Positions 6,407 to 28,800 of a DNA stretch of 64,000 nt are shown here, piece by piece. The stretch's first letter is position 1. Every line of letters starts with the position of its first letter. A program made the position numbers and the translations under genes. This DNA comes from Eubacteriales bacterium. Its GTDB lineage: Bacteria; Bacillota; Clostridia; Oscillospirales; CAG-272. The notes under the pieces are model-generated. The model had not been told where the DNA came from. It worked only from the letters and a program-made list of their open reading frames with translations, and did not search any database. The stretch covers positions 19,313 to 83,312 of the forward strand of contig JAZQYP010000025.1 of assembly GCA_045633625.1 (NCBI GenBank), written 5' to 3'.

Positions 6407-6435
6407 TTGCAACGTAAAAGCGGATGTGGTATAAT
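6407..6435 (+). promoter_or_regulatory. Sigma-A type promoter upstream of the T4SS/Tad block
   Basis: TTGCAA - 17 nt - TATAAT with an extended TGg. Confidence 0.6.
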
Positions 6436-6475
6436 TAGTATGCTCAAAACTATATCAAGCGCCACTTGGCGACAC

Positions 6476-6507
6476 AAACACCATTTTGTCCGATGGTGTT
6501 TTTTTGT
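6476..6507 (+). terminator. Leader terminator/attenuator between the promoter and the first T4SS gene
   Basis: aaacaccat / atggtgttt stem with an 8-nt loop, followed by a T-run. It lies about 65 nt downstream of the predicted TSS and before the RBS at 6533. Confidence 0.55.
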
Positions 6508-6545
6508 TGCTCAAAATCAAGAAATACAAACAAGGAGGTATTTAT

Positions 6546-6932
6546 TTGAAAAAGGAAATCACACCACAGACTCCCAAAAAGCCAAGGCTGCATATTGAAT
6601 GGGGCAAATTCCTTTATATGGGCTTTCTGTGTGCTATTATGCTGGTAGCGATGAGCATACCCGCATTTGCAGCGACACCGACTATTTGGGAAAAAGCTAC
6701 TGAAATTATGAAGGATGTATATAATCAAGTCCTTCTTATTTCAACGATTGCTGCGGTTGTAACCGCTGCTGTGGCTCTGCTTTTAATGAACTTTTCAAAA
6801 AGCGGAAAAACAGTAGATGAGTCAAGAGCGTGGCTCAAACGTATCATCATTACTTGGGCGATCCTGAACAGCCTTGGCTTCATTATGGCATATGTCACAC
6901 CCTTCTTCACGGATGGTAAGTGGAACGGATAG
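6546..6932 (+). CDS. VirB2/TrbC-like (Maff2-like) small T4SS membrane protein
   Basis: AAGGAGGtatttat-TTG start. Long signal peptide ending SIPAFA/ATPT, then two hydrophobic helices, as in VirB2-type subunits of Firmicutes elements. Confidence 0.5.
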   Translation: MKKEITPQTPKKPRLHIEWGKFLYMGFLCAIMLVAMSIPAFAATPTIWEKATEIMKDVYNQVLLISTIAAVVTAAVALLLMNFSKSGKTVDESRAWLKRIIITWAILNSLGFIMAYVTPFFTDGKWNG

Positions 6933-7009: not shown

Positions 7010-7675
7010 ATGCACGGACTGGATCTAATCAGTTCATCGGTTTTGGGCGCGCTTGGCTGTAATATGGATACCTTTTTGCGATACTTTCCCGCTGCCGACA
7101 CCATGTATAAGGTGTTCGTTGCTCTTGCAATCGGACTTATCCTTTTGAATTGGGTTTGGCAGTTGTTCAAAAACTTTGGATTGGGTATAGGCATTGAAGC
7201 AGAAGACCCCGTGAAGCTCAGTATTCGCTCTATTCTCTTCATTCTCCTTGCCTATTATGCACGGGATATTGTAAACATAGTTCTTGACATTGGCGGAACC
7301 CCTTATCATTGGATATTAAATTCCGAGTTACCTCCGCTGAATTTTGCAAACTTTAATTCAGTATTCCTTACCATTTTGGGTGTTTGTGCAAGCGGCGCCG
7401 TGTCCATCATAGCCCTCATACTTGTACTTATCCTTGCATGGAACTATATCAAGCTCCTTTTCGAAGCGGCTGAAAGATATGTTCTGCTTGGTGTTCTGGT
7501 CTTTACCGCTCCCGTTGCTTTCTCAATGGGCGCATCTCAAACAACAAGCAACATCTTCAAGAGTTGGTGCCGAATGTTTGGCGGTCAGATCTTCCTTCTT
7601 TTGATGAATGCTTGGTGCTTAAGACTCTTTACATCAATGGTAGGTGCCTTCCTCTCCAATCCCTTATCGCTGTAA
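7010..7675 (+). CDS. VirB6/TrbL-like polytopic T4SS channel protein (true start may lie upstream at a non-canonical codon, 6965/6971)
   Basis: Five or six TM helices. ERYVLLGVLVFTAPVAFSMG resembles TrbL/VirB6-like proteins of Gram-positive elements. The frame is open from 6944. Confidence 0.55.
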   Translation: MHGLDLISSSVLGALGCNMDTFLRYFPAADTMYKVFVALAIGLILLNWVWQLFKNFGLGIGIEAEDPVKLSIRSILFILLAYYARDIVNIVLDIGGTPYHWILNSELPPLNFANFNSVFLTILGVCASGAVSIIALILVLILAWNYIKLLFEAAERYVLLGVLVFTAPVAFSMGASQTTSNIFKSWCRMFGGQIFLLLMNAWCLRLFTSMVGAFLSNPLSL

Positions 7676-7685: not shown

Positions 7686-8600
7686 ATGAAAAAAAGAAAT
7701 AAAATACTATTTGTGATAGCCGTCACGCTGATTATGGTCTCCATTTGCAGTGTGCCGGCTTTTGCTTTGACCGAGGAAGAGGTCGAAGCGGCAGTTAACG
7801 CTCAAGGCAGAGATGCCGTTACGGGAAATATTTTCGTTTGGTTTCTTTGTGCTATTGCCTTCTTAAAGGTAAGCCAGAAGATAGACAGCTTTCTCGCGGG
7901 ACTCGGCATCAACGTAGGACACACGGGCGGTTCAATGATGGCAGAAGCTCTCATTGCTACAAGAGGTGCTTTTATGGCAAAGCAGTTTGCAGGCAGAGCC
8001 GGTGGCACAGGAGGAAAAGGCGCGTCCTCCGGTGGCGGTGGTGGCTTTATGAAAGGCGGTCTTGCAGGTGTTGTTAGCCGTAACTTTTCTAACAATGCCG
8101 TTAAGAAGGCTACGGGCAACGGTGGGGGCGGTCTTGGCGGAAAAGCCTTTACTTCCTCGGTCAGCAAAGGCGGCAGCTTTGCCAATAGCGTTATCGGTCG
8201 AGTAGCAACAGGAAACATTTCCTCAATGGGAACGATTTCAGGAGCAGGTTCAAGTGAGGCTTTAATGTCCTATCTTGGATATACGGCTCTCGGTGAGGAC
8301 GCAGAGGACGTTCCTTCCTACTCTAATGTAGAAATCGGAGGAGGCAGAATTATGGCGACCGAAACATCTGCCGACAATCCCGGTGGAATTGATGTGGGTA
8401 TGTATAATACCGAGCAATATATGGCTCCTTCCGGTGAGCATACAACGATTACGGCTGCCGATGGAACAAGCTGGTATAAGCAATACGCTCAGGATTCCGT
8501 AGAAAGAACTCCGTACAAAGCTCCCAACGGTGCCATTGGGTATCACGAAAACATTGTGAAGAAACTGCCTGATCCTCCTCGAAGAAAGGATAAGGTCTGA
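7686..8600 (+). CDS. Secreted glycine-rich protein, conjugation-associated, unknown function
   Basis: AAAGGAGGcagt-ATG. Signal peptide MKKRNKILFVIAVTLIMVSICSVPAFA, Gly-rich centre (GGTGGKGASSGGGGGF). Confidence 0.4.
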   Translation: MKKRNKILFVIAVTLIMVSICSVPAFALTEEEVEAAVNAQGRDAVTGNIFVWFLCAIAFLKVSQKIDSFLAGLGINVGHTGGSMMAEALIATRGAFMAKQFAGRAGGTGGKGASSGGGGGFMKGGLAGVVSRNFSNNAVKKATGNGGGGLGGKAFTSSVSKGGSFANSVIGRVATGNISSMGTISGAGSSEALMSYLGYTALGEDAEDVPSYSNVEIGGGRIMATETSADNPGGIDVGMYNTEQYMAPSGEHTTITAADGTSWYKQYAQDSVERTPYKAPNGAIGYHENIVKKLPDPPRRKDKV

Positions 8601-9430
8601 TGGCAGAAAACAACAATCCCGCTTCTGAACCTCTACAAAAAGGAGCTCAAGCGGCAAATGCAGTACGAGGAGCTGTTAAAACAGGAAAAGCCATAGCCGC
8701 AGCTGCAAAAGGTGCATCTGCGGGTGGTTTATATGGTGCGATTGCCGCATTTGCGTGGGAAAACAGAGGGCTTATCCTCAAGATCATCATAGCGGCAACC
8801 GCAGTATTTCTGATCCCCGTTATTATTATTTGTATGTTACCCTCTGTCATTTGGGGCGGTATCAAGGACGCATTTTCACCAAACAATCCTGATGTTCCTA
8901 TCCTCAATGACAGTACGGTAATTTCGACCAATTTAAGTGATATATCCTCATCCATCGGAACGATCATGTCCGAAGCGATGGCAGATATACTCACCCAAAT
9001 AGATTTAGACTTTGGAAACTCAAGCGCTACTCATAAGGAGATTATAAATCCCTACGATAGTACAACGAATTACAGCACTGCATCTTTTGTATCTCAATAC
9101 TCCGCATCTAAAAATACCGACTATCAATCGGTATCTATTCCGGATATGGAGCGTGTTCTGCGTGATAACAAAGACAAGCTCTATTCCTATACAAAGGTCT
9201 TTGAGAACAGAACAAGAACTGTTGAAACCGTTTACGTGGATGAAGAAACCGGTGAGGAATATGTCATAGAAACCGAGGTCACGGAAACGTGGGCAGTTTA
9301 TACCATTTCATACAATGGCGAGGAATACTTTGCAGATCATGTATTCGGTCTTTCGGAGGAACAAAAAAGGCTGGCTGAGGACTACACAAGCAATCTGAAT
9401 CTATTTTTGAGTGATGATACATTCAACTGA
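8600..9430 (+). CDS. Single-pass membrane protein, possible VirB8-like/scaffold component
   Basis: Start overlaps the upstream stop (TGATG). One TM helix (LILKIIIAATAVFLIPVIIICML) plus an extracytoplasmic domain of about 190 aa. No family recognised. Confidence 0.3.
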   Translation: MAENNNPASEPLQKGAQAANAVRGAVKTGKAIAAAAKGASAGGLYGAIAAFAWENRGLILKIIIAATAVFLIPVIIICMLPSVIWGGIKDAFSPNNPDVPILNDSTVISTNLSDISSSIGTIMSEAMADILTQIDLDFGNSSATHKEIINPYDSTTNYSTASFVSQYSASKNTDYQSVSIPDMERVLRDNKDKLYSYTKVFENRTRTVETVYVDEETGEEYVIETEVTETWAVYTISYNGEEYFADHVFGLSEEQKRLAEDYTSNLNLFLSDDTFN

Positions 9431-9502
9431 TTTTCAAGGAGGTGGTGATATATATGATTCGGCTATAATGCTCTCACAAGTCTTACGAACAGGAGGTAAA
9501 AT

Positions 9503-9742
9503 GTGAAACGGTTATTCAAAAAAGCAATCGATGTTTTGGATAACAAACGTGGAGACGGCTATATTGACGTAGCGGTAAAAATGATAATTGCCGTTGTCAT
9601 CGGAGCATTACTGCTTGGCGGTCTCTATTATTTGTTCAACAACATCGTCCTGCCGGGACTTGCAGAGCGAATTCAAGATATGTTCGGCTCTCCCGGTGGA
9701 AGCGGAAATGATGGCGGTGGCGGCGGCATCATTCTTCTTTAA
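9503..9742 (+). CDS. Tad/Flp-like pilin paralog 1 (Gly-rich C-terminus)
   Basis: AGGAGGtaaaat-GTG. Basic leader, then RGDG-YIDVAVKMIIAVVIGALLLGGLYYLF, a class III signal-like architecture. Confidence 0.5.
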   Translation: MKRLFKKAIDVLDNKRGDGYIDVAVKMIIAVVIGALLLGGLYYLFNNIVLPGLAERIQDMFGSPGGSGNDGGGGGIILL

Positions 9743-9788
9743 CAAGCACGCTAAATAAAAATCAAAGAAAGATACGAGGTAAACTTTT

Positions 9789-10031
9789 ATGAAAAAGCTT
9801 TTCAAAAACATTCAGAACAAGGCAAACGCTCTCGCAATCAAGGCAAAGTGTGCTCTTGATAACGCAAAGGCAGAGGGTTACATCGACACAGGTGTAAAAA
9901 TCATCATCGGCGTCGTAGTCGGCGCAGTCATTCTCGCAGGTCTCTACGCCCTCTTCGATGGCGTAATTCTTCCCACTCTCGAAGGCAGAATCGACGGAAT
10001 GTTCGATTACTCCGGCGCTCCCACAACCTAA
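9789..10031 (+). CDS. Tad/Flp-like pilin paralog 2
   Basis: 80 aa; AKAEG-YIDTGVKIIIGVVVGAVILAGLYALF. A near-duplicate of the next gene. Confidence 0.55.
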   Translation: MKKLFKNIQNKANALAIKAKCALDNAKAEGYIDTGVKIIIGVVVGAVILAGLYALFDGVILPTLEGRIDGMFDYSGAPTT

Positions 10032-10083
10032 TAGCAGGTTAACAAGCAAAACAAAATAAATTATTTGAAAGGAATAACATAAT

Positions 10084-10314
10084 ATGAAAAAATTCTTTAA
10101 GAAGCTTCAGGACAAGGCAAATTCTCTCGCAATCAAGGCAAAGTGTGCTGTGGAAAGCACCAAGGGCGAAGGTTACATCGATACAGGTGTAAAAATTATC
10201 ATCGGCGTCGTAGTCGGTGCGGTTATCCTCGCAGGACTGTACGCCCTCTTTGATAACGTCATTCTCCCTCGTCTCAACACCGAGATCACGAATATGTTCA
10301 ACTACACTGCTTAA
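10084..10314 (+). CDS. Tad/Flp-like pilin paralog 3
   Basis: 76 aa; TKGEG-YIDTGVKIIIGVVVGAVILAGLYALF. Confidence 0.55.
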   Translation: MKKFFKKLQDKANSLAIKAKCAVESTKGEGYIDTGVKIIIGVVVGAVILAGLYALFDNVILPRLNTEITNMFNYTA

Positions 10315-10337
10315 GTTCTTAGGCGGTGTTTTTTGTT

Positions 10338-10364: not shown

Positions 10365-10384
10365 TCAAATAAAAGGAGGAAAAA

Positions 10385-10978
10385 GTGGAAATACTATTTC
10401 AATTTTTAACCCTTTTCGGTCTGCTTCTCGCGGTGTGCGGAATAACGTGTATTCTTAACTACTATATGAGAAAACGAGGATTCTCCGTCAATGCTCTTGC
10501 GAATCATCTTATCGTTGTTCTCGTTACCGTTGCGCTTTATGTGTTTGGCGGACTAAGTATTTGGACTGCAAAGGGTGTGATTATGTTGCTTGTCTTACTG
10601 TATGCGTCCGTACAGGACATTTCCACCCACGAAGCTGACGACTCACTTTGGGTAATGCTTCTGATACTCGCCCTTGTAGGTTTTGGCGATGTTGGTATTT
10701 GGTCAATGGTGATGGGCGGTCTGCTCGTCTTTATTCCGCAGATGGCAATCGCCATGTTTACGAACGGCAACGGAATTGGCGGTGCCGATATCAAGATCTC
10801 TACTGCGGCGGCTGTCTTGCTTGGTTTATTCGGCGGGGTTCTCGGATACGTGATAGGTCTTACTTTTGCCGTGATATTTAACCTTATTTACAATAAAGTC
10901 AAAAAACAAGCCTCAAATAAGGCGTTTGCCTTGCTTCCTTTCATATCGGCAGGTCTTATGGTAGGTTATTTCATTTAA
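10385..10978 (+). CDS. tadV: A24-family prepilin peptidase (TadV/CpaA-like)
   Basis: GTG start after AAAGGAGG. Polytopic, with the two Asp motifs VQDISTHEADD and GIGGADIK. Confidence 0.7.
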   Translation: MEILFQFLTLFGLLLAVCGITCILNYYMRKRGFSVNALANHLIVVLVTVALYVFGGLSIWTAKGVIMLLVLLYASVQDISTHEADDSLWVMLLILALVGFGDVGIWSMVMGGLLVFIPQMAIAMFTNGNGIGGADIKISTAAAVLLGLFGGVLGYVIGLTFAVIFNLIYNKVKKQASNKAFALLPFISAGLMVGYFI

Positions 10979-10993: not shown

Positions 10994-11803
10994 ATGAGTT
11001 TTGGAAATCAAACCCAAACAAAAGAACCAAGAGCAGAAAAAAAGCCCAGGGGTACAGGTAAAAGTGTCTTTTCTTCACGTACCGTTATCGGTATTGTCTG
11101 TATCGTGCTTGCACTGCTCATTACATTCGGCGTAGCTCCGCTTGTCAACCGTTTTTCCGACCAAAAGGTTGACATTATAAGACTCAAGGCTAACGTGCCG
11201 CGCGGACAGGTCATCACAGCCGAACATCTTGAGGTCGCAAGCGTCGGTGCTCACAATCTTCCCAGCGGTATTATTAAGGACGGAAACGCTATTGTCGGGA
11301 AATATGCTGCAACCGATTTATTTGCAGGAGATTATCTTTTTCCTGCAAAAATTTCCGCTGATAACAAGAGTGCAGACGACGTACTGCTTGGTCTTGACGG
11401 AACCAAGGTTGCAATCAGTGTTACCATCGGAAACTTTGCACAAGGTCTTTCTAATAAACTTGAAAACGGGGATATTGTCAGCGTAATCATATATGACAAG
11501 GATAAGTATATGTCCTATACTCCGGATGAGCTTCAGTATGTCAGAGTAATCACCGCCACCACAAGTGACGGCATTGACAAAGACGAAGCAGAAAACGGAA
11601 AATCTGCAACTGTTACGGTGTTAGTTACTCCGGAGCAGGCAGAACTGCTTGCACAGTATAATAGCGTTACATCTCTTCACTTTGCCCTTGTATACCGCGG
11701 AGATAAGGAAAAGGCAGATGCCTTTATTAAGGTTCAAGACGATTATTTGAAAAACAATCCCATCGTCAATGAGCCGACCGAGGAGGCAGAAGCAAATGAG
11801 TAA
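10994..11803 (+). CDS. cpaB: Flp pilus assembly protein CpaB (SAF/RcpC-like)
   Basis: N-terminal TM anchor and a SAF-like segment (LKANVPRGQVITAEHLEV ... DLFAGDYLFPAKI). Confidence 0.65.
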   Translation: MSFGNQTQTKEPRAEKKPRGTGKSVFSSRTVIGIVCIVLALLITFGVAPLVNRFSDQKVDIIRLKANVPRGQVITAEHLEVASVGAHNLPSGIIKDGNAIVGKYAATDLFAGDYLFPAKISADNKSADDVLLGLDGTKVAISVTIGNFAQGLSNKLENGDIVSVIIYDKDKYMSYTPDELQYVRVITATTSDGIDKDEAENGKSATVTVLVTPEQAELLAQYNSVTSLHFALVYRGDKEKADAFIKVQDDYLKNNPIVNEPTEEAEANE

Positions 11804-12536
11804 AATGATAGCAGTATGGGGCGCGCCGAATTGTGGTAAGACCACGTTTTCGGTAAAACTCGCCGAAACAATTTATAGAAGTTCCGGAGGAAAAAGTGCT
11901 GTTATCGTTGTATTTGCTGATAGTCTGACGCCCACGCTTCCCGTTGTCTTTCCAAATCACAAGAGCGAGGAGGTGTTCTCTGTGGGGGCAATTCTTTCAA
12001 AACCCGATTTCTTTGCAGATGATGTGGTTTCCAATATCGTTATGTTGAAAAACAAAATGAATCTCGGCTTCCTTGGTTATAAGGAAGGAGAAAACATTCA
12101 TTCTTATCCAACCTATACAGAAGCCAAGGCAAACTATTTCTACGATACGTTGCTCGGCATCACCGACTATATTATTGTGGATTGTATGTCAGATCCCGAT
12201 GGAAACCATCTTACGCGAGTTGCGCTTGAGCGAGCTGATAGTACTGTTAGATTATCGGCACCCGATCTCAAATGTATCAGTTATCAGATGTCCCAGCAAA
12301 TGATATTTGCGGCGGCAGGTCTTATGAAGGCGGGAGATCTTCTTGTAATGAATATCCCCCGTGAAGAACTGAACATGGCGGCACAGGACGCTAAGCATCA
12401 TCTCGGCAGAATTACTGCGACACTTCCGTTCAGTCCTGCACTTGCGGAACAATATATGGAAGGAAATATGGTTTTGCCGCTTAAAGACAAAAGGTATACA
12501 CAAGCATTGAAAGAGATTGCGGAAAGGTTGGTGTAA
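11796..12536 (+). CDS. tadZ: ParA/MinD-like P-loop ATPase (TadZ/CpaE-like)
   Basis: MIAVWGAPNCGKTTFSVKLA deviant Walker A. The start overlaps the cpaB stop by 8 nt. Confidence 0.5.
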   Translation: MSKMIAVWGAPNCGKTTFSVKLAETIYRSSGGKSAVIVVFADSLTPTLPVVFPNHKSEEVFSVGAILSKPDFFADDVVSNIVMLKNKMNLGFLGYKEGENIHSYPTYTEAKANYFYDTLLGITDYIIVDCMSDPDGNHLTRVALERADSTVRLSAPDLKCISYQMSQQMIFAAAGLMKAGDLLVMNIPREELNMAAQDAKHHLGRITATLPFSPALAEQYMEGNMVLPLKDKRYTQALKEIAERLV

Positions 12537-12539: not shown

Positions 12540-13853
12540 ATGGCAGTTATCGAATTATCCTCGCTTGTACCGCTGTGTCAAAGCTTCATTGCTCGGAATT
12601 ACTCCGCAGCAATCATCGATAAAAGCAAAACCGAGGAATTGAAGGCGTATATAGGCAAATATCTTTACGATACAGATTATTCGGTTGTTGGCTTCGATAC
12701 AAAAGAGCTTGTGGAAAGACTCTTTGAAGAAATGGCGGAATATTCGATTCTGACAAAACATCTTGCCGATCCCGATATAGAGGAAATCAACATTAACGGT
12801 TGGGACGATGTGGCTTTAACACATCTTGACGGAAGAATTGAAAAAGCAAATGAGCATTTCTTTTCCCCGACACACGCAATTGACATCGTAAAAAAATTGC
12901 TTCAGCATTCCGGAATGATCATTGATAATGCCGCACCTATCGCTCAAGGTCATCTTCCAAACAATACCCGTGTAACAGCACTCAAAGAACCTATTGTGGA
13001 TGCTAATCGAGGAATAGCGGTGTCTATTCGTATGCTTCACCCGCAACGAGTGGATCGTGAAAGTCTGCTTCAAACAGAATCACTTACCGAAGAAATGTTG
13101 TATTTTCTTGAGGTATGCTTGCGGTACGGAGTGTCATTTGTCGTGGCAGGAAGAACCTCGTCCGGCAAAACTACTCTTCTTAACAGCTTGCTTGGCTCAA
13201 TTCCTGACGGTAAGCGTATCTACACAATTGAAAGCGGTGCCCGTGAATTGTCTTTGATAAAGAGAGACCAAAACGGCAAGGTAGTCAATAACGTAGTTCA
13301 CACCTTGTCTCGTCCCTCCGACAAAGAAGCGTATGACATATCACAAGAAGATCTTGTAATGGCAGCGCTCAGATTTGACCCTGATATTATTTGTGTCGGT
13401 GAGATGAGAGACGCAGAGGCGCATTCCGCGGTAGAAGCAAGCTCAACCGACCACACTGTTGTAACTACCGTTCACGGTGGCGGCGGCAGATATGCCCATC
13501 GCAGAATCGCGTTCTTGTCTCAGCGCAGATTTCCTATAGATATGAAAATATCAATGCAACAAGCGGCGCTTGCCTTTCCCGTGGTCGTGTTTGCCCATAA
13601 GCTCGAAGACAATAGCCGTAAGGTAATGGACATTTCAGAATGTGTAGTACACGACGATGGCGAGCTTGAGTATCGAACCTTATATCGTTACAAGATCAAC
13701 AGCAATGAGTATAAGGATGGGCGTTTCCATATCATAGGTGAATTTATCAAAGAAAATACTCCCTCGGACTACCTCTGCACGAAGCTGTTGCGTGGCGGCA
13801 TTCCACAAGAAATTCTCCAAAAATTCAATAAAGAAGGAGGAAATACAACTTGA
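12540..13853 (+). CDS. tadA: CpaF/TadA secretion ATPase
   Basis: Walker A GRTSSGKTTLLNSL, Walker B/Asp box DPDIICVGEMRDAEA, His box HTVVTTVHG. Confidence 0.85.
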   Translation: MAVIELSSLVPLCQSFIARNYSAAIIDKSKTEELKAYIGKYLYDTDYSVVGFDTKELVERLFEEMAEYSILTKHLADPDIEEININGWDDVALTHLDGRIEKANEHFFSPTHAIDIVKKLLQHSGMIIDNAAPIAQGHLPNNTRVTALKEPIVDANRGIAVSIRMLHPQRVDRESLLQTESLTEEMLYFLEVCLRYGVSFVVAGRTSSGKTTLLNSLLGSIPDGKRIYTIESGARELSLIKRDQNGKVVNNVVHTLSRPSDKEAYDISQEDLVMAALRFDPDIICVGEMRDAEAHSAVEASSTDHTVVTTVHGGGGRYAHRRIAFLSQRRFPIDMKISMQQAALAFPVVVFAHKLEDNSRKVMDISECVVHDDGELEYRTLYRYKINSNEYKDGRFHIIGEFIKENTPSDYLCTKLLRGGIPQEILQKFNKEGGNTT

Positions 13854-14776
13854 TTGCTTTATATATTATTGCCTTTGTTCTGGCAGTCATCGGCATCATA
13901 TTTGTTTTGAAGATCACACCGGAGCAAATAAACAACGACATTACGGATCTGTTCGGCAAAGAGGAAACGCTGAAGGATAAATCGCTGAGCGCACGTGGCA
14001 AGAAAAAGAAAAGCAAAATTTTACTTGAGCTTGAGCACTTGCATCGAGCGTTAAAGGAAACGGGAAAAGAAAAGCAATTTTCATTTGCTTGTGCGCTGTC
14101 GGCACTTTTAATGGTTGCCGGCTGTGTAATTGCAATTGCGATTGATAACGTTTTCTTGATTCCTGTACTTGCTGTGGCGTTTGCGATATTACCGTTTGCA
14201 TATCTTCACAAAGCCATTGCAATCTATGAGGAAAGAGTCAAGACCGAGCTTGAATCGGCGCTTTCTCTTATTACAAGCTCCTATATCAGAAGCGAAAATC
14301 TTGTTGCAGCAGTTGAGGATTCCATTCCTAATCTGCATCCACCGCTGAAAAGTGTATTTGAGAGCTTTTTGACCGAGGCATCTGTAATTTCTCCCGATAT
14401 ACGTCAAGCGATTTATCATATGAAGGATAAAGTCAAGAACGATATATTTAAGGAATGGTGTGATGCTTTAATTGCTTGTCAAAACGACAGAGTTTTGATT
14501 GACATTCTTCACCCCATCACCAAAAAGCTGAACGAGGAGCGTGTCGTAAATAACTCGCTTCGCACAATGCTTTCCGAGGCACGCCGAGAATATTGGATGA
14601 TGGTAATGCTCGTTCTTGCAAACATCCCACTCCTTTACTGTATCAATAAGAGTTGGTACGATTCTCTGATGCACACTACCTTTGGCAAAATCGTTCTTGC
14701 CATCAGCGGCGTGATGATTATTATAACGGCAATCCGTATGAACAAGCTTACAAAGCCCATAGAATACAAACGCTAA
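13850..14776 (+). CDS. tadB: TadB-like platform protein (T2SS-F family)
   Basis: TTG start overlapping the tadA stop. It has an N-terminal TM, a central soluble T2SSF-like segment and C-terminal TMs. Confidence 0.6.
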   Translation: MIALYIIAFVLAVIGIIFVLKITPEQINNDITDLFGKEETLKDKSLSARGKKKKSKILLELEHLHRALKETGKEKQFSFACALSALLMVAGCVIAIAIDNVFLIPVLAVAFAILPFAYLHKAIAIYEERVKTELESALSLITSSYIRSENLVAAVEDSIPNLHPPLKSVFESFLTEASVISPDIRQAIYHMKDKVKNDIFKEWCDALIACQNDRVLIDILHPITKKLNEERVVNNSLRTMLSEARREYWMMVMLVLANIPLLYCINKSWYDSLMHTTFGKIVLAISGVMIIITAIRMNKLTKPIEYKR

Positions 14777-14788
14777 GGAGGACTGATT

Positions 14789-15661
14789 ATGGTAATACTT
14801 CAAATTATGATCGGTCTTTTTGTTGCAATAGGCGTTGCGTTCGTTTGGGCAGACGTTGTAAAGCTCCCCACGATGAAGGCGTCAAAGGCGGCAAACAACC
14901 TTGGAAAAAAAGGAAACAAAAAAACAAGCACCATTGACATCTACCTAAAAAACATTTCGGCAAAGCTGGCTGAAAAGATAAGGCTTAACGAATACAAAAA
15001 AGACCAACTCGCAACTGATCTTAAAACAGCGGGACTTAACATTACTCCCGAGGCGTATGTATCGGATGCGATTGTAAAGTCTGTAGCAATAGGTCTGCTT
15101 GCAATTCCCGCGTTCTTTATTGTTAAAATTCTTGGCTTATTTATCATTTTTGTGGCTGTTGTAATGTATTTCAGCGAAATGAAAAAGGTCAGCAAGATGA
15201 TTATCAAAAAGAAAAAGAAGATTGAGTATGAGCTGCCACGTATGGTTTCTTCCATAGAAAAAACGATGAAGCACCAAAAAGGCGTTGTTTATGCTCTTGA
15301 AGCGTTCAAAGATACGACTTGCCCCGAGTTAAAGGAAGAGCTTGAAATCACAATTGCGGATATGCGTTCCGGCAGTGAGTTTGATGCCCTTTCGAGACTT
15401 GAAAGCAGAGTTGGTTCACACGATATGCTTCTTGTAACCAAAGGATTGCGCGGAGCTTTGTACGGAGATGATATGTCTGTCTATTGGGCAACGATCTCTC
15501 TCCAACTATCTGCCGCACAGCAAGAAAAGCTCAAGGAACAAGCCCTCGGAGTTCCCAGAAAGGTGCGCAAGCTTTCTATGGCACTTTTATTCTGCTTCAT
15601 ACTCATATACGTAGCCGTGCTCGGTCAAGTTTTGCTTGGCTCAATGGGCACGCTGTTCTGA
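14789..15661 (+). CDS. tadC: TadC-like platform protein (T2SS-F family)
   Basis: Same architecture as tadB (ELPRMVSSIEKTM..., C-terminal TM pair). Confidence 0.6.
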   Translation: MVILQIMIGLFVAIGVAFVWADVVKLPTMKASKAANNLGKKGNKKTSTIDIYLKNISAKLAEKIRLNEYKKDQLATDLKTAGLNITPEAYVSDAIVKSVAIGLLAIPAFFIVKILGLFIIFVAVVMYFSEMKKVSKMIIKKKKKIEYELPRMVSSIEKTMKHQKGVVYALEAFKDTTCPELKEELEITIADMRSGSEFDALSRLESRVGSHDMLLVTKGLRGALYGDDMSVYWATISLQLSAAQQEKLKEQALGVPRKVRKLSMALLFCFILIYVAVLGQVLLGSMGTLF

Positions 15662-16085: not shown

Positions 16086-16086
16086 G

Positions 16087-25704: not shown

Positions 25705-25844
25705 TGCTTTTTCAAAAAAATTCTTCTACATCGTGAAAATACGCAAAAACCATTGTCGCACAAGGCTTCTTGCCGCATTAAAATATCGCAAAAATACCGA
25801 GTCTCTGTGTTGCTCGGTAAACTTTCCACGAAAGAAGGTGTCGT

Positions 25845-26978
25845 ATGCCTTACCCCGTCAAACTCCCCGACAAACGGACAATGGCTTATGAACTGCTTCA
25901 GCTCATAGCCATTTTAGGTGAATTACCAAGCCATCAACTCTCCCGTCTGCCGGGTGGAGACAGATACAAAGAACGGCTGCTTACCGATCTGAAAAAGCAG
26001 AAGCTTATCCGTACATACTACCGTGATGAGATGCGCGGACACAGGCTGACGGCAAAAGCAAAAGCACTTTTGCTTGACGGTAATCCTTCTCGTTTTTCCT
26101 CTTGTCTTGCCAAGTATGCAGATACCAATCACGTACAAAGCGAACCCCTCCGTCGTGAACGGTTATGGCGAATAGCCGAGGCAACCGTCACGATGAAAAA
26201 TGCAGATATATCCGTTTTCCCCGACGAACACCCGAGAGCCTTTTTGAGAGCTTGGGACGGTGCTGACGAAATCGAAACAGCTTCCTTTTATCCTTCAAGA
26301 GAGGTCACTGCTTACGGCAATGAATTTGTGAGGGCTAAAGGCGCACGATTTATCGGCGTCCTGCTAACGGATACGCGAGCTTACATTGCGTATAACTTGG
26401 GAGATTCCCTTATGAAATGGGCATACAAAAGCGAGATGAGAACCAAAGCACAGGTCAGCGACATTCTATGCCGCGAACGCTATCCCGATCAGTATACTCC
26501 CGATGACGTGCGCGGAATGATATTCGCAAACAAAATGGAGCTTGCCTATGAAATACTATCCAATTCCGGTAACAAGCAGTATTTTATTTTGGATGGAAGC
26601 TATGAGAATTTTTACTATGTTACCAACGACCAAAAAGGCGAGCTTCTTTTGAGATTTCTATGTGATGCAGAGCTGCGAGAGGAACTCGACGAGCTTGTGA
26701 TAGGACATCTTGATCCATCAAATAATCGACTGCTGTTTGAACACGATGCTCTTTTAGAGGACGGTACGCCGGTCCTTCTTGCGTATGATTGCGACCTCAG
26801 ACGAATCAGCAAGTTTACGTCTATGCTCAACCTACAAGAAAGACACGGAGTGCTTATGTGCTTTGATTATCAAGCGGATACGCTTGGCAGATTTTGCGGA
26901 GAGCGTGTTACGTTAAAAACCATTGACTACGAAAAAGTGAAAAGGAGGTTTTTCGAAAATAAACAAGAAACTGATTAA
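25845..26978 (+). CDS. Hypothetical protein with an N-terminal winged-helix-like segment (possibly replication-relaxation-like)
   Basis: AYELLQLIAILGELPSHQLSRL...LKKQKLIRTY looks like a wHTH. The gene sits directly upstream of, and overlaps, the coupling-protein gene. Confidence 0.3.
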   Translation: MPYPVKLPDKRTMAYELLQLIAILGELPSHQLSRLPGGDRYKERLLTDLKKQKLIRTYYRDEMRGHRLTAKAKALLLDGNPSRFSSCLAKYADTNHVQSEPLRRERLWRIAEATVTMKNADISVFPDEHPRAFLRAWDGADEIETASFYPSREVTAYGNEFVRAKGARFIGVLLTDTRAYIAYNLGDSLMKWAYKSEMRTKAQVSDILCRERYPDQYTPDDVRGMIFANKMELAYEILSNSGNKQYFILDGSYENFYYVTNDQKGELLLRFLCDAELREELDELVIGHLDPSNNRLLFEHDALLEDGTPVLLAYDCDLRRISKFTSMLNLQERHGVLMCFDYQADTLGRFCGERVTLKTIDYEKVKRRFFENKQETD

Positions 26979-27000
26979 AATACTGTGCGTAGGACCGCCA

Positions 27001-28800
27001 TTGTTATTTGCCTTGCTCTATGGCGGTGGATATATAGCGCAGTTTATCCGTAACTATACCGAATGGCAAAATTCGGGAGCTGTTATGGGAGACGGCACCT
27101 CTCCGCAAATGCCAACATTCGCTATCGGCGAGTGCTTTCGAGCTATGTTTACAATGCCGTATGGAATCATCGGCATTGCGATATGTGTGCTCGTGCTTGG
27201 ACTTCTCGTATTTATGGTTATGCGTATGGGCTTTGGCGACAAGGGAGAGTACGACAGAAACCGAAATCTCATCTACTCCAACAAAGGTACTTACGGTACA
27301 GCGGGCTTTATGCCCGAAAAAGAAATAGCCGAGGTGCTTGATGTTGTGGGCGACGTGCGAAAGCACACGGGCACGATTCTCGGAAAGTTAAACGGCAAAG
27401 CAATTTGTGTTCCGAAGGAAACAAGATTAAATGCCAATATTGCCGTTTACGGAGCCAGCGGCTCAATGAAAACAAGAGCGTTTTGCATCAACCGCATTTT
27501 GCAAAGTGCGGCACGCGGAGAGTCGCTTATCATAACAGATCCAAAGTCCGAGCTATACGAGAAAACAAGCGAGTATCTACGGTCGAAGGGATACGTGGTT
27601 AAGGTCTTCAATTTGGTATCACCCGAAAGTTCCGATTCTTGGAACTGCTTGTGCGAGATTGAGGGAGACGAACTTATGGCGCAGCTATTTTGCGATGTCA
27701 TTATCAAGAACACGGGCTCGGAACGGGGCGATCATTTTTGGGATAACGCAGAAATGAATCTGCTCAAGGCGTTAGTTCTCTACGTGGAACAAGGTTATCC
27801 TCCCGATAGGAAGAACATTGGCGAGGTATATAGGCTTCTGACGTTGAATTCAGAAAATGAACTTAACACCTTATTTGACAAGCTGCCCATTTCGCATCCC
27901 GCAAAAGCGCCTTATGTAATTTTCAAGCAAGCGTCCGAAACGGTGCGGACAGGCGTTATCATTGGGCTTGGCTCCCGCCTTCAGGTATTTCAGAACAGTA
28001 AGGTCAAGAGCATAACAGCCTATGACGAGATCGACCTTGAGCTGCCGGGAAAGCAACCGTGTGCATACTACTGCATCACAAGCGATCAGGACAGCACCTT
28101 TGACTTCTTATCCTCGCTCTTTTTATCCTTTGTATTCATCAAGCTTGTAAGGTACGCAGATAAAAACTGCGAAGGCGGTAAGCTTCCCGTTCCCGTTCAC
28201 GTGCTTGGAGAAGAGTTGACCGCCTGCGGTGTCATTCCCGACCTCAGCCGAAAAATATCGGTAATCAGGTCCCGTAATATTTCAATGTCCTGCGTATTCC
28301 AGAATCTTGCAGGACTTCAAAACCGCTATCCGTACAACCAATGGCAAGAAATACTCGGCAATTCAGATATTCAGCTTTTCCTCGGATGTGTGGATGAGCT
28401 GACCGCAAAATATATCAGCGACCGAGCCGGCGAGGTTTCTATCGCTGTTACGAGCAAGGCAAAGCAGCTTGGTACTTGGCGCGTCAGCGACTATACACCG
28501 GAATATAGGGAGACAAGCGGTGTCGGAAAGCGAAAGCTGCTCACGATGGACGAAGTTTTGCGCCTTCCCATCAACCAAGCATTGATCATCATTCGAGGAA
28601 GAAAGGTACTCCAAGTAGATAAATACGATTACACCTGTCACCCCGAAGCAGACAAATTGGTTATGTGTAAGGCATCTGAACACATACCCGAATGGGTCAA
28701 GCGTCCTAAAACCACAGAAAAAGAAACACAAGAACAACCGCCAAAAAAGGAAAAGAAAAAAGTAGTCCCGACCGGGAAGGACTCGGTAATGTCAGATTAG
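27001..28800 (+). CDS. virD4: VirD4/TraG-type type IV coupling protein (probable real start upstream, ATA at 26959)
   Basis: Walker A-like VYGASGSMKTRA, then IITDPKSELYE. Two N-terminal TM helices are present only if translation starts upstream of the TTG. Confidence 0.85.
   Translation: MLFALLYGGGYIAQFIRNYTEWQNSGAVMGDGTSPQMPTFAIGECFRAMFTMPYGIIGIAICVLVLGLLVFMVMRMGFGDKGEYDRNRNLIYSNKGTYGTAGFMPEKEIAEVLDVVGDVRKHTGTILGKLNGKAICVPKETRLNANIAVYGASGSMKTRAFCINRILQSAARGESLIITDPKSELYEKTSEYLRSKGYVVKVFNLVSPESSDSWNCLCEIEGDELMAQLFCDVIIKNTGSERGDHFWDNAEMNLLKALVLYVEQGYPPDRKNIGEVYRLLTLNSENELNTLFDKLPISHPAKAPYVIFKQASETVRTGVIIGLGSRLQVFQNSKVKSITAYDEIDLELPGKQPCAYYCITSDQDSTFDFLSSLFLSFVFIKLVRYADKNCEGGKLPVPVHVLGEELTACGVIPDLSRKISVIRSRNISMSCVFQNLAGLQNRYPYNQWQEILGNSDIQLFLGCVDELTAKYISDRAGEVSIAVTSKAKQLGTWRVSDYTPEYRETSGVGKRKLLTMDEVLRLPINQALIIIRGRKVLQVDKYDYTCHPEADKLVMCKASEHIPEWVKRPKTTEKETQEQPPKKEKKKVVPTGKDSVMSD

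What the first reader, a model, noticed from the sequence alone, without database searches (positions are those of the whole stretch)
6407..28800. Complete Tad/Flp-type (type IVc) pilus locus nested inside a Gram-positive-style conjugative T4SS operon
**Seen:** From the promoter/leader at 6407-6507 to the coupling-protein stop at 28800, every ORF is on the + strand. Gaps are short, and several stop and start codons overlap (8598-8602 TGATG, 11796 vs 11803, 13850-13853, 16907-16911 TAATG). T4SS-type genes sit at both ends:
- VirB2-like 6546-6932
- VirB6-like 7010-7675
- VirB3/PrgI-like 21621-21998
- VirB4 22013-24487
- VirD4 27001-28800

The middle 9.5-20.9 kb is a full Tad set: three pilins, an A24 peptidase, CpaB, a TadZ-like ATPase, TadA/CpaF, TadB, TadC and two pseudopilins, plus a 1318-aa adhesin. 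I could not recognise any VirB1-type peptidoglycan hydrolase in the block.

**Established:** Gram-positive conjugation machines are generally described as pilus-less and adhesin-dependent, and Tad pili are adhesion organelles.

**Inference:** This element may use a type IVc pilus with an associated adhesin for mating-pair formation, or may encode a composite T4SS/Tad machine. I am not aware of a characterised example, but I cannot check the literature here.
Basis: partly seen in the sequence, partly recalled or inferred. Interest (0 to 1): 0.9.

Follow-up and report, generated by a model that had tools for sequence, protein, structure and literature searches.

The report
Tad-type pilus cassette inside conjugation operon
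A very common gut Clostridia mobile element carries a complete Tad-type (type IVc-like) pilus gene set plus a large adhesin spliced into its DNA-transfer operon, and relatives carry ordinary Gram-positive adhesins or sortase pili in similar slots, so the pilus most likely holds mating cells together in bacteria usually described as lacking conjugative pili.

Summary
Window 6546-28800 is one uninterrupted + strand train of 24 genes. VirB4, VirD4 (CD1115 family) and a PrgI/VirB3-like gene are solid. The VirB2-like and VirB6-like calls rest on position and topology only.

The middle is a complete monoderm-type Tad set: three Flp-sized pilins (DUF6133), an A24 peptidase, CpaB, a TadZ-like ATPase, TadA/CpaF, TadB, TadC and two pseudopilins. 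A 1318-aa adhesin without a wall anchor follows.

The Tad-adhesin segment (about 9416-21620) is an insertion. Sister elements in Vescimonas and Subdoligranulum share the backbone (VirB4 70-72% identical) with g04 joined directly to PrgI-VirB4. There g04 carries a Peptidase_C39_2 domain that is missing here. Vescimonas has sortase pili instead of Tad. Subdoligranulum has a different Tad block in that same slot.

Homologous Tad blocks occur in about 80 species-level genomes and several plasmids, next to plasmid or ICE genes wherever enough flank was held. In a second backbone the same slot holds either Tad plus adhesin or a SpaA/TED-type adhesin.

Best reading: a swappable adhesion module for mating-pair formation, not part of the DNA channel. 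No paper describing this was found. The known analogues are the Gram-negative R64/TP114 and PAPI-1 type IV pili.

The parts
6407..6501 (+). Promoter-like site (TTGCAA-17-TGnTATAAT, 6407-6435) followed by a leader with a terminator-like hairpin and T-run (6476-6501).
   Evidence: The same promoter, 'TAGTATGCTCAAAAC' box and hairpin layout occur in Vescimonas, Subdoligranulum and L021 with different stem sequences. In L021 this leader directly precedes the pilin genes.
6546..6932 (+). g01: small membrane protein with a signal peptide and two hydrophobic helices. DUF3852-related; 'VirB2-like' by topology only.
   Evidence: No Pfam or NCBIfam hit. phmmer to a DUF3852-type ORF gives 1e-5. It is 74% identical to the Vescimonas gene annotated 'fimbrial protein'.
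7010..7675 (+). g02: polytopic membrane protein and VirB6/TrbL candidate (unproven).
   Evidence: Pfam TrbL E=0.089. hhalign against TrbL_5 gives 12%. It is 81% identical to its counterpart in both sister elements.
7686..8600 (+). g03: Gly-rich secreted or membrane protein of the T4SS backbone; function unknown.
   Evidence: No family hit. It is 53-54% identical in the sister elements.
8600..9430 (+). g04: corresponds to the N-terminal 270 residues of the backbone's membrane-anchored C39_2 peptidase. The peptidase domain is missing here.
   Evidence: tblastn: Vescimonas C39 protein residues 1-270 map to window 8597-9415. Peptidase_C39_2 lies at residues 298-431 of that protein. The full-length form is present in Subdoligranulum.
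9503..10314 (+). Three tandem Flp-sized prepilin genes (9503-9742, 9789-10031, 10084-10314), DUF6133 family.
   Evidence: Pfam E 1e-22 to 1e-25. A shared motif N-K-[KR]-[AG]-E-G-Y-[VI]-D followed by a hydrophobic helix appears at 76 unique sites; the mature part is about 46 aa.
10304..10329 (+). Terminator-like hairpin directly after the third pilin gene; possibly attenuates transcription between the pilin and assembly genes.
   Evidence: The function is inferred.
10385..10978 (+). Prepilin peptidase (A24, TadV/CpaA-like, with no methyltransferase domain).
   Evidence: Pfam Peptidase_A24 4e-7, above the cutoff. The QD and GGAD aspartate motifs are readable in the translation.
10994..11803 (+). 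CpaB/RcpC-family pilus assembly protein.
   Evidence: Pfam RcpC 8e-13 plus SAF. NCBIfam TIGR03177 scores 77.7, above the cutoff of 71.
11796..12536 (+). TadZ/CpaE-like ParA/MinD-type ATPase, ATPase domain only.
   Evidence: hhalign against canonical TadZ gives 71%, E 4e-5, aligned to TadZ residues 146-321. Weak MinD hit at 4e-4.
12540..13853 (+). TadA/CpaF-family secretion ATPase.
   Evidence: Pfam T2SSE 7e-27. The identical protein is named CpaF family by NCBI and occurs on 132 contigs. Best NCBIfam hit is TIGR03819, below the cutoff.
13850..15661 (+). Two paralogous platform proteins: TadB-like (13850-14776) and TadC-like (14789-15661).
   Evidence: hhalign: g12 against TadB 85-89%, g13 against TadC 83%, g12 against g13 87%; controls 0.1-0.2%. 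The Terrisporobacter homologue is annotated 'secretion protein F'.
15675..16569 (+). Two pseudopilins: g14 (DUF4320, 15675-16085) and g15 (16087-16569).
   Evidence: DUF4320 6e-30. Both carry a prepilin-type N-terminus; the EGY[IV]D motif is shared with the pilins across loci, and the window's g15 has KKGFSY.
16580..16909 (+). g16: small bitopic acidic protein of unknown role.
   Evidence: No family hit. Present only in the closest Tad blocks.
16909..20865 (+). 1318-aa secreted adhesin. It has a Sec signal peptide, MucBP, six Listeria-Bacteroides repeats and a conserved C-terminal domain of about 320 aa (DUF8194/DUF8195). There is no LPXTG motif or membrane anchor.
   Evidence: The C-terminal 320 aa are conserved in 41 of 43 loci while the N-terminal part varies. 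AF2 (pLDDT 88) gives tandem beta-sandwiches with only generic matches.
20876..21619 (+). g18: cytoplasmic protein of unknown function at the 3' end of the inserted segment.
   Evidence: No Pfam, PDB or fold match. Its family has 3374 homologues and also occurs in ICEs without Tad, next to YodL/LPD28 and giant SNF2 genes.
21621..21998 (+). PrgI/VirB3-like small membrane protein.
   Evidence: Pfam PrgI 0.009. The Vescimonas homologue (59% identical) is fused to VirB4 and named a PrgI family protein.
22013..24487 (+). VirB4-family conjugation ATPase.
   Evidence: TraG P-loop 1e-19 and AAA_10. NCBIfam CD1110 family 1.6e-75, score 255 against a cutoff of 325. It is 70-72% identical to the Vescimonas and Subdoligranulum proteins.
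24499..26978 (+). DUF5697 (24499-25029), DUF6100 (25042-25704) and a 377-aa protein (25845-26978). These are conserved backbone genes between VirB4 and VirD4. Roles are unknown and no relaxase is recognised.
   Evidence: No similarity to a replication-relaxation protein.
27001..28800 (+). VirD4-type coupling protein.
   Evidence: T4SS-DNA_transf 1e-46. NCBIfam conju_CD1115 scores 406, above the cutoff of 250.

Best explanation
**What it is.** The window holds an integrated conjugative element of gut Eubacteriales. Its transfer operon has the backbone HTH regulator, u2, promoter/leader, g01-g04, PrgI, VirB4, DUF5697, DUF6100, g23 and VirD4. This operon has taken up a 12-kb cassette (about 9416-21620).

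**What the cassette encodes.**
- Three Flp-sized pilins and two pseudopilins that share one prepilin motif.
- An A24 peptidase to process them.
- A CpaB, TadZ-like, TadA, TadB, TadC assembly machine.
- A Sec-secreted adhesin with a variable N-terminal binding region and a conserved C-terminal domain, but no wall anchor.

**Proposed mechanism (inferred).** The cassette is transcribed with the T4SS genes from the conserved promoter and leader. The donor then makes thin Tad-type pili that carry or present the adhesin. The pili bind recipient cells and hold them against the donor, perhaps pulling them in. The minimal Gram-positive T4SS can then form the mating junction and VirD4/VirB4 move the DNA.

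**Role.** The cassette plays the part that surface adhesins (PrgB-type proteins, SpaA/TED proteins, sortase pili) play in related elements. It is exchangeable with them and is not part of the DNA channel.

**Shown:** the gene content, the insertion, the linkage to conjugative elements, and the module swapping.

**Inferred:** pilus assembly, adhesin attachment to the pilus, co-transcription, and the role in mating.
For: 1. **Complete monoderm Tad set.** Every component of the minimal monoderm Tad machine listed in PMC6916266 is present.
2. **Insertion.** Vescimonas pMM35_02 and Subdoligranulum OY725878 share the whole backbone (VirB4 72% and 70%, VirD4 71% and 70%). In both, g04-C39 is directly followed by PrgI/VirB4.
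3. **Same slot, different appendage.** After the S1 gene Vescimonas has SpaA and SpaH pilins plus two class C sortases, while Subdoligranulum has a divergent Tad block.
4. **A second backbone repeats the pattern.** In the ParA-ParB ... g18 ... giant-helicase ICE family the slot holds a 1376-1416-aa SpaA/SdrD/TED protein or Tad plus the DUF8195 adhesin (loci).
5. **Always with transfer or plasmid genes.** All 80 genome loci found with the TadA profile (59-100% identity) keep the same Tad gene order. Of 39 loci with at least 7 kb upstream, 37 show ParA, ParB or DUF3849. VirB4, TrbL_5 or DUF3852 appear downstream in 14 of the 40 loci with at least 500 bp held after the adhesin. Plasmids of Terrisporobacter, C. 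difficile and an Oscillospiraceae isolate carry the block on the same strand as VirD4, VirB4 and a relaxase.
6. **Position varies, operon membership does not.** Within this backbone clade the block sits at three different places inside the transfer operon. In L021 it lies directly behind the conserved promoter and leader.
7. **Adhesin architecture.** The variable N-terminus and conserved C-terminus fit a specificity module docked to a conserved partner.
8. **Precedent.** Plasmid-encoded type IV pili with adhesins are required for mating in broth and in the mouse gut for TP114 and R64 (PMC9045228).
Against: - No experiment exists. Co-transcription, piliation and an effect on transfer are all untested.
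- The adhesin has a MucBP domain, and Tad pili of Bifidobacterium are host-colonisation factors. The target could therefore be mucus or host surfaces rather than recipient bacteria.
- Nothing shows that the adhesin is attached to the pilus. Its C-terminal model gives only generic beta-sandwich matches.
- The pilins lack the canonical Flp G/XXXXEY arrangement, so behaviour like studied Tad pili is an extrapolation.
- In 26 of the 40 genome loci with at least 500 bp held after the adhesin, no T4SS gene was seen in the DNA held. There the link to a T4SS rests on neighbouring plasmid or ICE genes.
- No relaxase and no peptidoglycan hydrolase were recognised in the window's element.
Confidence: 0.55

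Rival explanations
1. Colonisation cargo. The Tad pilus and the MucBP/Listeria-Bacteroides-repeat adhesin attach the host bacterium to mucus, epithelium or food particles. They ride on conjugative elements because adhesion traits spread well horizontally, and they play no part in DNA transfer.
For: - The adhesin has a MucBP domain and Flg_new repeats.
- Tad pili are gut colonisation factors in Bifidobacterium breve (PMC6916266).
- Tad is the type IV filament class most often plasmid-borne and horizontally transferred (PMC6668835).
- The block is dispensable for the backbone.
Against: - The block lies inside or directly beside the transfer operon on the same strand rather than among cargo genes. 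In L021 it sits behind the conserved transfer promoter and leader.
- In the window, VirB4 and VirD4 lie downstream of it with 1-14 nt gaps at the junctions.
- The TadA clade was never seen away from plasmid or ICE genes where enough flank was held.
- The two roles are not exclusive.
Confidence: 0.25
2. Composite machine. The Tad apparatus is a structural part of the transfer channel. For example, the pilus breaches the cell wall or conducts DNA, replacing functions the T4SS has lost, such as the missing C39 hydrolase domain.
For: - The cassette is nested between T4SS genes in the window, L021 and L022.
- Exactly these three elements lack the Peptidase_C39_2 domain that sister elements carry on g04.
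- No other hydrolase was found in the element.
Against: - Sister elements have a complete, contiguous T4SS operon without Tad.
- In most other backbones the Tad block lies kilobases away from VirB4, and those elements keep M23 or C40 hydrolases.
- The slot is filled by plain adhesins in relatives.
- The three hydrolase-less elements form one clade (TadA 79-81% identical), so the correlation is a single event.
Confidence: 0.08
3. DNA-uptake or other pilus function. The Tad pilus serves natural transformation, as Flp pili do in Micrococcus luteus, or it serves surface sensing, biofilm formation or exclusion rather than donor-recipient attachment.
For: Flp pili are required for transformation in M. 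luteus (PMC6916266 and PMC6370729).
Against: - No competence genes (ComEA, ComEC or DprA-type) were seen in the element.
- A large adhesin always accompanies the block.
- The block is exchangeable with adhesins.
Confidence: 0.05

Closest known systems
Thin type IVb pilus of IncI plasmids (R64 pil; TP114 PilS/PilV)
   Same: It is a type IV filament machine encoded on a conjugative element beside, but separate from, the T4SS. It carries adhesins that decide which recipients are bound. It is needed for mating-pair stabilisation in liquid and in the mouse gut, and is dispensable on solid surfaces.
   Different: - It is type IVb, not Tad/IVc-like.
- The hosts are diderm and the machine has a secretin.
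- The adhesin is a minor pilin (PilV) varied by a shufflon, not a Sec-secreted 1300-aa protein.
- There is no sequence relationship beyond the superfamily.
PAPI-1 / ICE-encoded type IVb pilus of Pseudomonas aeruginosa
   Same: The pilus is encoded on an integrative conjugative element and is reported as required for its transfer (cited in PMC3548315).
   Different: It is Gram-negative, uses a type IVb pilin, and belongs to a different T4SS class (MPF_G).
Canonical Tad/Flp pili (Aggregatibacter tad, Caulobacter cpa; monoderm versions in Bifidobacterium breve and Micrococcus luteus)
   Same: - The component list matches: a short pilin with a long leader, two pseudopilins, an A24 peptidase without a methylase domain, a TadA/CpaF ATPase, paralogous TadB and TadC, TadZ-like and CpaB proteins.
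- There is no secretin, as in monoderm systems.
   Different: - The pilins are DUF6133, with the motif [KR]-[AG]-E-G-Y-[VI]-D instead of G/XXXXEY.
- TadZ lacks its N-terminal domain.
- TadB and TadC are too diverged for Pfam T2SSF.
- The block is accompanied by a large adhesin and always sits on a mobile element.
Gram-positive conjugation adhesins (PrgB-type aggregation substance; SpaA/TED-type surface proteins and sortase pili on ICEs)
   Same: They have the same proposed role and occupy the same genomic slot. In two backbones the Tad plus adhesin block alternates with a SpaA/SdrD/TED protein or with SpaA/SpaH pilins plus class C sortases.
   Different: Those are wall-anchored by sortase. Here the adhesin has no LPXTG motif and comes with a type IV filament machine.
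CD1110/CD1115-type (MPF_FATA-like) T4SS of Clostridia conjugative elements
   Same: VirD4 passes the CD1115 equivalog and VirB4 is nearest to the CD1110 family. There is a PrgI/VirB3-like gene and no VirB7, VirB9 or VirB10.
   Different: VirB4 scores below the family cutoff. No hydrolase, no recognised VirB8-like protein and no recognised relaxase were found.
NCBIfam TIGR03819 'TadA family conjugal transfer-associated ATPase'
   Same: It is the best NCBIfam hit of the TadA-like protein. The family name records an earlier annotation-level idea that some Tad-like ATPases are tied to conjugal transfer.
   Different: The score of 123 is far below the cutoff of 373, so the window protein is not a member. 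What the family's name rests on was not examined here.

Membership tests
Tad/Flp (type IVc) pilus system | Short Flp-type pilin: long leader and a mature part of about 50-80 aa or less that begins with a hydrophobic helix | tested here: met
   Three DUF6133 genes of 76-80 aa. The leader is about 27-31 aa and the mature part has a median of 46 aa over 76 unique sites.
Tad/Flp (type IVc) pilus system | Canonical Flp motif G/XXXXEY (Glu-Tyr at +5/+6 of the mature pilin) | tested here: not met
   The conserved motif is [KR]-[AG]-E-G-Y-[VI]-D-[ST]-G-V-K-I. E and Y flank the only invariant Gly, and the cleavage position is unknown.
Tad/Flp (type IVc) pilus system | Dedicated A24 prepilin peptidase without a methyltransferase domain | tested here: met
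   Peptidase_A24 scores 30.7 bits against a cutoff of 26.5. The protein is 197 aa and both Asp motifs are readable.
Tad/Flp (type IVc) pilus system | TadA/CpaF-clade secretion ATPase | tested here: inconclusive
   T2SSE 7e-27, and NCBI names the identical protein CpaF family. NCBIfam scores are similar for TIGR03819 (123), VirB11 (119) and FlaI (117), all below their cutoffs. No phylogeny was made.
Tad/Flp (type IVc) pilus system | Two paralogous platform proteins (TadB, TadC; T2SSF fold) | tested here: met
   There is no Pfam hit for the single sequences. Family profiles match TadB at 85-89%, TadC at 83% and each other at 87%, with controls at 0.1-0.2%.
Tad/Flp (type IVc) pilus system | TadZ/CpaE ParA-like ATPase and CpaB/RcpC | tested here: met
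   CpaB passes TIGR03177. The TadZ-like protein matches the ATPase domain only, at 71%.
Tad/Flp (type IVc) pilus system | TadE/TadF-type pseudopilins processed by the same peptidase | tested here: inconclusive
   g14 (DUF4320) and g15 carry the same N-terminal motif class as the pilins. There was no TadE Pfam hit, and processing cannot be tested here.
Tad/Flp (type IVc) pilus system | An assembled extracellular filament | not testable with these tools
   This needs EM, cryo-ET or shearing preparations.
Gram-positive conjugative T4SS (MPF_FATA-like, CD1110/CD1115 type) | VirB4 ATPase | tested here: met
   TraG P-loop 1e-19 and AAA_10. CD1110 family 1.6e-75, score 255 against a cutoff of 325.
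Gram-positive conjugative T4SS (MPF_FATA-like, CD1110/CD1115 type) | VirD4-type coupling protein | tested here: met
   conju_CD1115 scores 406 bits against a cutoff of 250.
Gram-positive conjugative T4SS (MPF_FATA-like, CD1110/CD1115 type) | VirB6-like polytopic protein and VirB3/PrgI-like protein | tested here: inconclusive
   g02: TrbL E=0.089 and TrbL_5 hhalign 12%. PrgI: E=0.009, but its homologue is fused to VirB4 in Vescimonas.
Gram-positive conjugative T4SS (MPF_FATA-like, CD1110/CD1115 type) | Membrane-anchored cell-wall hydrolase (VirB1 analogue) | tested here: not met
   No hydrolase domain was found in any ORF of the element. Sister elements have Peptidase_C39_2 on g04.
Gram-positive conjugative T4SS (MPF_FATA-like, CD1110/CD1115 type) | Relaxase and oriT | tested here: inconclusive
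   No relaxase family hit was found in Pfam or NCBIfam for any ORF from 4.7 to 47 kb. g23 is not replication-relaxation-like. MOB-suite types the sister replicons as non-mobilizable.
Conjugative-element type IV pilus for mating-pair stabilisation (R64/TP114 kind) | A type IV filament gene set encoded on the conjugative element together with an adhesin | tested here: met
Conjugative-element type IV pilus for mating-pair stabilisation (R64/TP114 kind) | The pilus is required for transfer in liquid or the gut but not on solid surfaces | not testable with these tools
   This needs mating assays with deletion mutants.

The most novel reading that the evidence does not exclude
A large and very abundant group of ICEs and plasmids in gut Clostridia builds a dedicated Tad-type conjugative pilus tipped or decorated by a variable adhesin. 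This would be the first conjugative pilus system of monoderm bacteria, unrelated to VirB2 pili. The cassette would be traded among unrelated conjugation backbones as an alternative to sortase-anchored adhesins, and would set recipient range in the gut.
Probability: 0.4. Interest if true: 0.85.

Novelty: new variant of a known kind. Interest (0 to 1): 0.66.

Why it matters
Conjugation in Gram-positive bacteria is usually described as pilus-free and dependent on surface adhesins (PMC4027160). How donors of the dominant gut Firmicutes find and hold recipients is largely unknown.

If this Tad cassette serves mating, a type IV filament has been recruited for conjugation in monoderm bacteria as well. 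That would parallel the IncI thin pilus, which is essential for transfer in the mouse gut.

The element is very common. The identical ATPase occurs on 132 contigs and thousands of near-identical copies exist. Related cassettes occur in about 80 species-level genomes and on C. difficile plasmids. The variable adhesin could therefore be a determinant of who exchanges genes with whom in the gut.

The question can be tested directly in cultured carriers. The analysis also assigns probable roles to several families of unknown function: DUF6133 as pilin, DUF4320 as pseudopilin, and DUF8194/DUF8195 as the conserved adhesin domain.

Tried and rejected
- **Plasmid DNA search.** A near-identity search of 6400-28800 against plasmids found no match.
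- **RNA genes.** Rfam at gathering thresholds and a tRNA scan of the whole window found nothing, so there is no riboswitch in the leader and no tRNA attachment site.
- **Element ends.** The left end maps to about window 4398, judged from five different flanking contexts. No matching direct repeat was found further right. The 279-aa tyrosine recombinase at 46946 is always followed by the same TetR and camelysin-like genes. The right end remains unknown.
- **Relaxase.** None was recognised by Pfam or NCBIfam. The profiles of g21, g22 and g23 do not match a replication-relaxation protein.
- **g18.** I first treated it as part of the Tad cassette and as a possible hydrolase substitute. I rejected both ideas. 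It has no signal peptide, no Pfam or PDB match, and a pLDDT-74 model with no fold match. Its family also sits in Tad-less ICEs.
- **Adhesin C-terminus.** I tested whether it is a PilY1-like propeller. It is not. The confident model shows tandem beta-sandwiches with only generic matches.
- **VirB6.** The assignment for g02 could not be confirmed. The 99.6% hhalign match of g01 to DUF3852 is inflated because one DUF3852-type sequence was in the query set. The independent evidence is phmmer 1e-5.
- **T4SS linkage survey.** The 10-kb flank limit stops many genome loci short of the T4SS. T4SS markers were seen in only 14 of the 40 loci with at least 500 bp held after the adhesin.
- **Literature.** Searches for the DUF names and for Tad together with Gram-positive conjugation returned nothing relevant.

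Full report
**1. The observation**

From 6546 to 28800 there are 24 ORFs, all on the + strand. Gaps run from -8 to 140 nt and several stop and start codons overlap. Independent gene calls on ten other contigs carrying the same element show the same train and no minus-strand gene inside it.

A promoter-like site with an extended -10 box lies at 6407-6435. A terminator-like hairpin with a T-run follows at 6476-6501, before the first gene.

**2. T4SS genes**

- VirB4 (22013-24487) hits TraG P-loop (1e-19) and AAA_10. It is nearest to the NCBIfam CD1110 family, scoring 255 bits against a cutoff of 325.
- VirD4 (27001-28800) passes the CD1115 equivalog, 406 bits against 250.
- The PrgI/VirB3-like call (21621-21998) is weak on its own (E=0.009). 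Its 59%-identical homologue in Vescimonas is fused to VirB4 and named a PrgI family protein.
- The 'VirB6-like' g02 is not confirmed: Pfam TrbL E=0.089, and hhalign against TrbL_5 gives 12%.
- The 'VirB2-like' g01 has no VirB2/TrbC hit. It has a signal peptide and two hydrophobic helices, and it is related to DUF3852 (phmmer 1e-5).
- No relaxase and no cell-wall hydrolase were recognised anywhere in the element.

**3. Tad genes**

- The three small genes at 9503, 9789 and 10084 are DUF6133.
- Across 76 distinct sites in related loci they share the motif N-K-[KR]-[AG]-E-G-Y-[VI]-D-[ST]-G-V-K-I followed by a hydrophobic helix. The part after the Gly has a median of 46 aa. That is Flp size, but it is not the canonical G/XXXXEY motif.
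- The same motif class opens g14 (DUF4320) and g15, so they are pseudopilins.
- The A24 peptidase, CpaB (passes TIGR03177) and the T2SSE ATPase (7e-27; named CpaF family by NCBI) are clear.
- The two 300-aa membrane proteins have no Pfam hit. Profiles built from their families match canonical Rhizobium and Burkholderia TadB (85-89%, E 2e-6), TadC (83%, E 9e-6) and each other (87%). Unrelated controls give 0.1-0.2%.
- g10 matches only the ATPase domain of TadZ (71%).

This equals the minimal monoderm Tad machine listed by Pelicic (PMC6916266), plus CpaB. There is no secretin, as expected for a monoderm host.

**4. The adhesin**

- The 1318-aa protein has a Sec-type signal peptide, a MucBP domain and six Listeria-Bacteroides repeats. 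It has no LPXTG motif or C-terminal anchor.
- Its last 320 residues or so (DUF8194/DUF8195) are conserved in 41 of 43 related loci, whereas the rest varies.
- A confident model of this part (pLDDT 88, pTM 0.84) shows tandem beta-sandwiches. It has only generic matches and is not a PilY1-type propeller.

**5. The cassette is an insertion**

The closest VirB4 proteins on plasmids are in Vescimonas fastidiosa pMM35_02 (72%) and Subdoligranulum variabile OY725878 (70%). Both carry the whole backbone in the same order: HTH, u2, g01, g02, g03, g04, PrgI, VirB4, DUF5697, DUF6100, g23, VirD4, S1, then the zinc-finger, SSB and DUF932 genes. Protein identities are 40-81%.

In both sister elements g04 is a 463-aa protein with a C-terminal Peptidase_C39_2 domain, and it is followed directly by PrgI/VirB4. 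The window's g04 matches only residues 1-270. Next come the 12 kb from 9416 to 21620, and then PrgI.

The Tad-adhesin-g18 segment was therefore inserted here. The hydrolase-like domain is absent at that same junction.

**6. One slot, several appendages**

- Vescimonas has no Tad genes. After the S1 gene it has SpaA and SpaH LPXTG pilins and two class C sortases.
- Subdoligranulum has a different Tad block (TadA 41.5% identical) at that same place.
- Two closer relatives of the window's cassette (TadA 79-81%) have it at other positions in the same operon. In L021 it lies between u2 and g01. In L022 it lies between g01 and g02. Neither has the big adhesin.
- In L021 the conserved promoter, 'TAGTATGCTCAAAAC' box and hairpin leader, which precedes g01 in the window, Vescimonas and Subdoligranulum, directly precedes the pilin genes.

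**7. Distribution**

- The window's TadA is found unchanged on 132 contigs, and thousands of near-identical copies exist.
- The left end of the element (about window 4398) abuts different genes in different contigs, which marks it as mobile.
- A TadA profile search of one genome per species returned 80 loci at 59-100% identity. They come from Eubacteriales, Acutalibacteraceae, Oscillospiraceae, Lachnospiraceae and Christensenellaceae MAGs.
- Where the contig allows, all keep the order pilins, A24, CpaB, TadZ-like, TadA, TadB, TadC, DUF4320, g15, and in most an adhesin of 770-2127 aa.
- Of 39 loci with at least 7 kb upstream, 37 show ParA, ParB or DUF3849.
- Downstream, DUF3852, TrbL_5 and VirB4 appear in the loci that reach far enough. 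That is 14 of the 40 loci with at least 500 bp held after the adhesin; the 10-kb flank limit cuts off the rest.
- A complete plasmid of a cultured Oscillospiraceae shows the full layout: ParAB, Tad, a 1610-aa adhesin, then DUF3852, TrbL, VirB4, an M23 peptidase, a MobP3 relaxase and VirD4.
- More distant versions (TadA 33-42%) lie beside pLS20-type T4SS genes on Terrisporobacter and C. difficile plasmids. Another lies beside FtsK/replication-relaxation genes on a Thermoanaerobacterium plasmid.

**8. A second case of swapping**

The gene after the adhesin, g18, belongs to a family of 3374 proteins. In five sampled places (four look-ups) it sits in an abundant ICE backbone. The order is ParA, ParB, a 1376-1416-aa SpaA/SdrD/TED surface protein, YodL or an unnamed protein of about 205 aa, g18, LPD28 in two of the places, a giant SNF2 helicase, and in two places DUF3991/Toprim. 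These have no Tad genes.

In a sixth place the same position holds the Tad block and the DUF8194/DUF8195 adhesin.

So g18 is a backbone gene that came along with the cassette. The Tad-plus-adhesin unit again alternates with a conventional Gram-positive adhesin. The window's nearest Tad relatives (86-87% TadA, L014 and L018) lie in this ParB-type backbone. The cassette was probably acquired from such an element.

**9. Interpretation**

The best-supported reading is that the cassette is an exchangeable adhesion module used for donor-recipient attachment. Four lines of evidence point that way:

- The cassette is complete.
- It lies beside plasmid or ICE genes in every locus with enough flank, on the same strand as the transfer genes.
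- It can sit anywhere in or next to the transfer operon.
- It alternates with adhesins and sortase pili in two unrelated backbones.

This is functionally like the R64/TP114 thin pilus, which is needed for mating in broth and in the mouse gut (PMC9045228; PMC3548315 and PMC4027160).

A composite Tad/T4SS channel is unlikely, because the same T4SS exists without Tad.

A pure colonisation-cargo role cannot be excluded. The adhesin has a MucBP domain, Bifidobacterium Tad pili are colonisation factors, and Tad is the most often transferred type IV filament. The two roles may coexist.

All functional steps are inferred: assembly, adhesin docking, co-transcription and the effect on transfer.

**10. 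Novelty**

Within the searchable library I found no paper that links a Tad-type pilus to Gram-positive conjugation or that mentions DUF6133, DUF4320, DUF5697 or DUF6100. Subscription literature was not covered.

An annotation-level precedent exists in the NCBIfam name 'TadA family conjugal transfer-associated ATPase', which the window protein hits below the cutoff.

I rate the finding a new variant of a known kind: a conjugative-element type IV pilus, here of Tad type and in monoderm hosts. It is of real interest but not categorically new, and it has no functional proof.

Noticed in passing
window 49202-62847 (also 46946-48895): A row of seven + strand genes (182-799 aa) follows a 279-aa tyrosine recombinase and a TetR-like gene. 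Six have N-termini that hit Peptidase_M73/camelysin (TasA-like), and one also hits NosD/beta-helix; the first, 49202-50881, has no Pfam hit. The same neighbours follow the recombinase on other contigs. This may be a secreted fibre or surface-protein cluster, either cargo of the element or the integration site.
   Followed up: partly
window 6360-6510; L093 ~15950-16100; L094 (reverse complement) ~6340-6490; L021 ~790-930: A conserved leader precedes the transfer operon. It has repeated TTGGCA boxes, an extended -10 promoter, a conserved 'TAGTATGCTCAAAAC' box and then a terminator-like hairpin. The stem sequence differs between relatives while the structure is kept. This looks like an attenuator or antitermination control point. 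No Rfam family matches.
   Followed up: partly
window 8600-9430 versus L093 18225-19616: The window's element and its relatives L021 and L022 have lost the Peptidase_C39_2 domain that sister elements carry on g04. No other wall hydrolase was found. Yet the element is abundant and sits in many different contexts, so it appears to transfer without a recognisable hydrolase.
   Followed up: partly
window 24499-26978: DUF5697, DUF6100 and a 377-aa protein are conserved between VirB4 and VirD4 in all three backbone relatives. No relaxase was recognised in the element, so one of these may be an undescribed relaxase or accessory factor.
   Followed up: partly
L107, L108, L110-L112 (g18 contexts): A very abundant ICE backbone is integrated next to rplM-rpsI in L107, L108 and L110, or next to a tRNA-synthetase gene in L111. 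Its order is ParA, ParB, a 1400-aa SpaA/TED adhesin, YodL/DUF3846 or an unnamed protein of about 205 aa, g18, LPD28 (L111, L112), and a giant helicase of 2300-2860 aa (WH_1/DUF8437/SNF2). DUF3848 and DUF3991/Toprim follow in L111 and L112. One g18 variant occurs on 145 contigs.
   Followed up: partly
L039 and L063 (Firmicutes bacterium CAG:272, scaffold FR891099.1): Two Tad blocks of this family lie 13 kb apart on one scaffold. The first has no DUF4320 or adhesin part.
   Followed up: no
L097 (Thermoanaerobacterium pMU3262): A distant Tad block (CpaB, AAA ATPase, TadA, TadB, TadC, small pilin, DUF4320) lies about 5 kb downstream of FtsK/SpoIIIE-domain and replication-relaxation genes. This links the DUF4320-type Tad to a different kind of transfer system.
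   Followed up: no
L007 12250-13123: In one metagenomic copy of the element the TadC-like gene is split into two ORFs of 83 and 165 aa. This is either a frameshift or an assembly error.
   Followed up: no
window 28832-30040 (- strand): The only minus-strand gene near the operon is an AAA_14/DUF4143 ATPase between VirD4 and the S1-domain gene. A homologue sits at other positions in Vescimonas and L022, so it behaves as a small movable insert.
   Followed up: no
window 39850-42858 and 43326-44282: The element encodes a 1002-aa fused N6-methyltransferase/SNF2 helicase. It also encodes a DUF5131 protein with weak similarity to the radical SAM mobile pair proteins. These are probably anti-restriction or establishment functions.
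   Followed up: no
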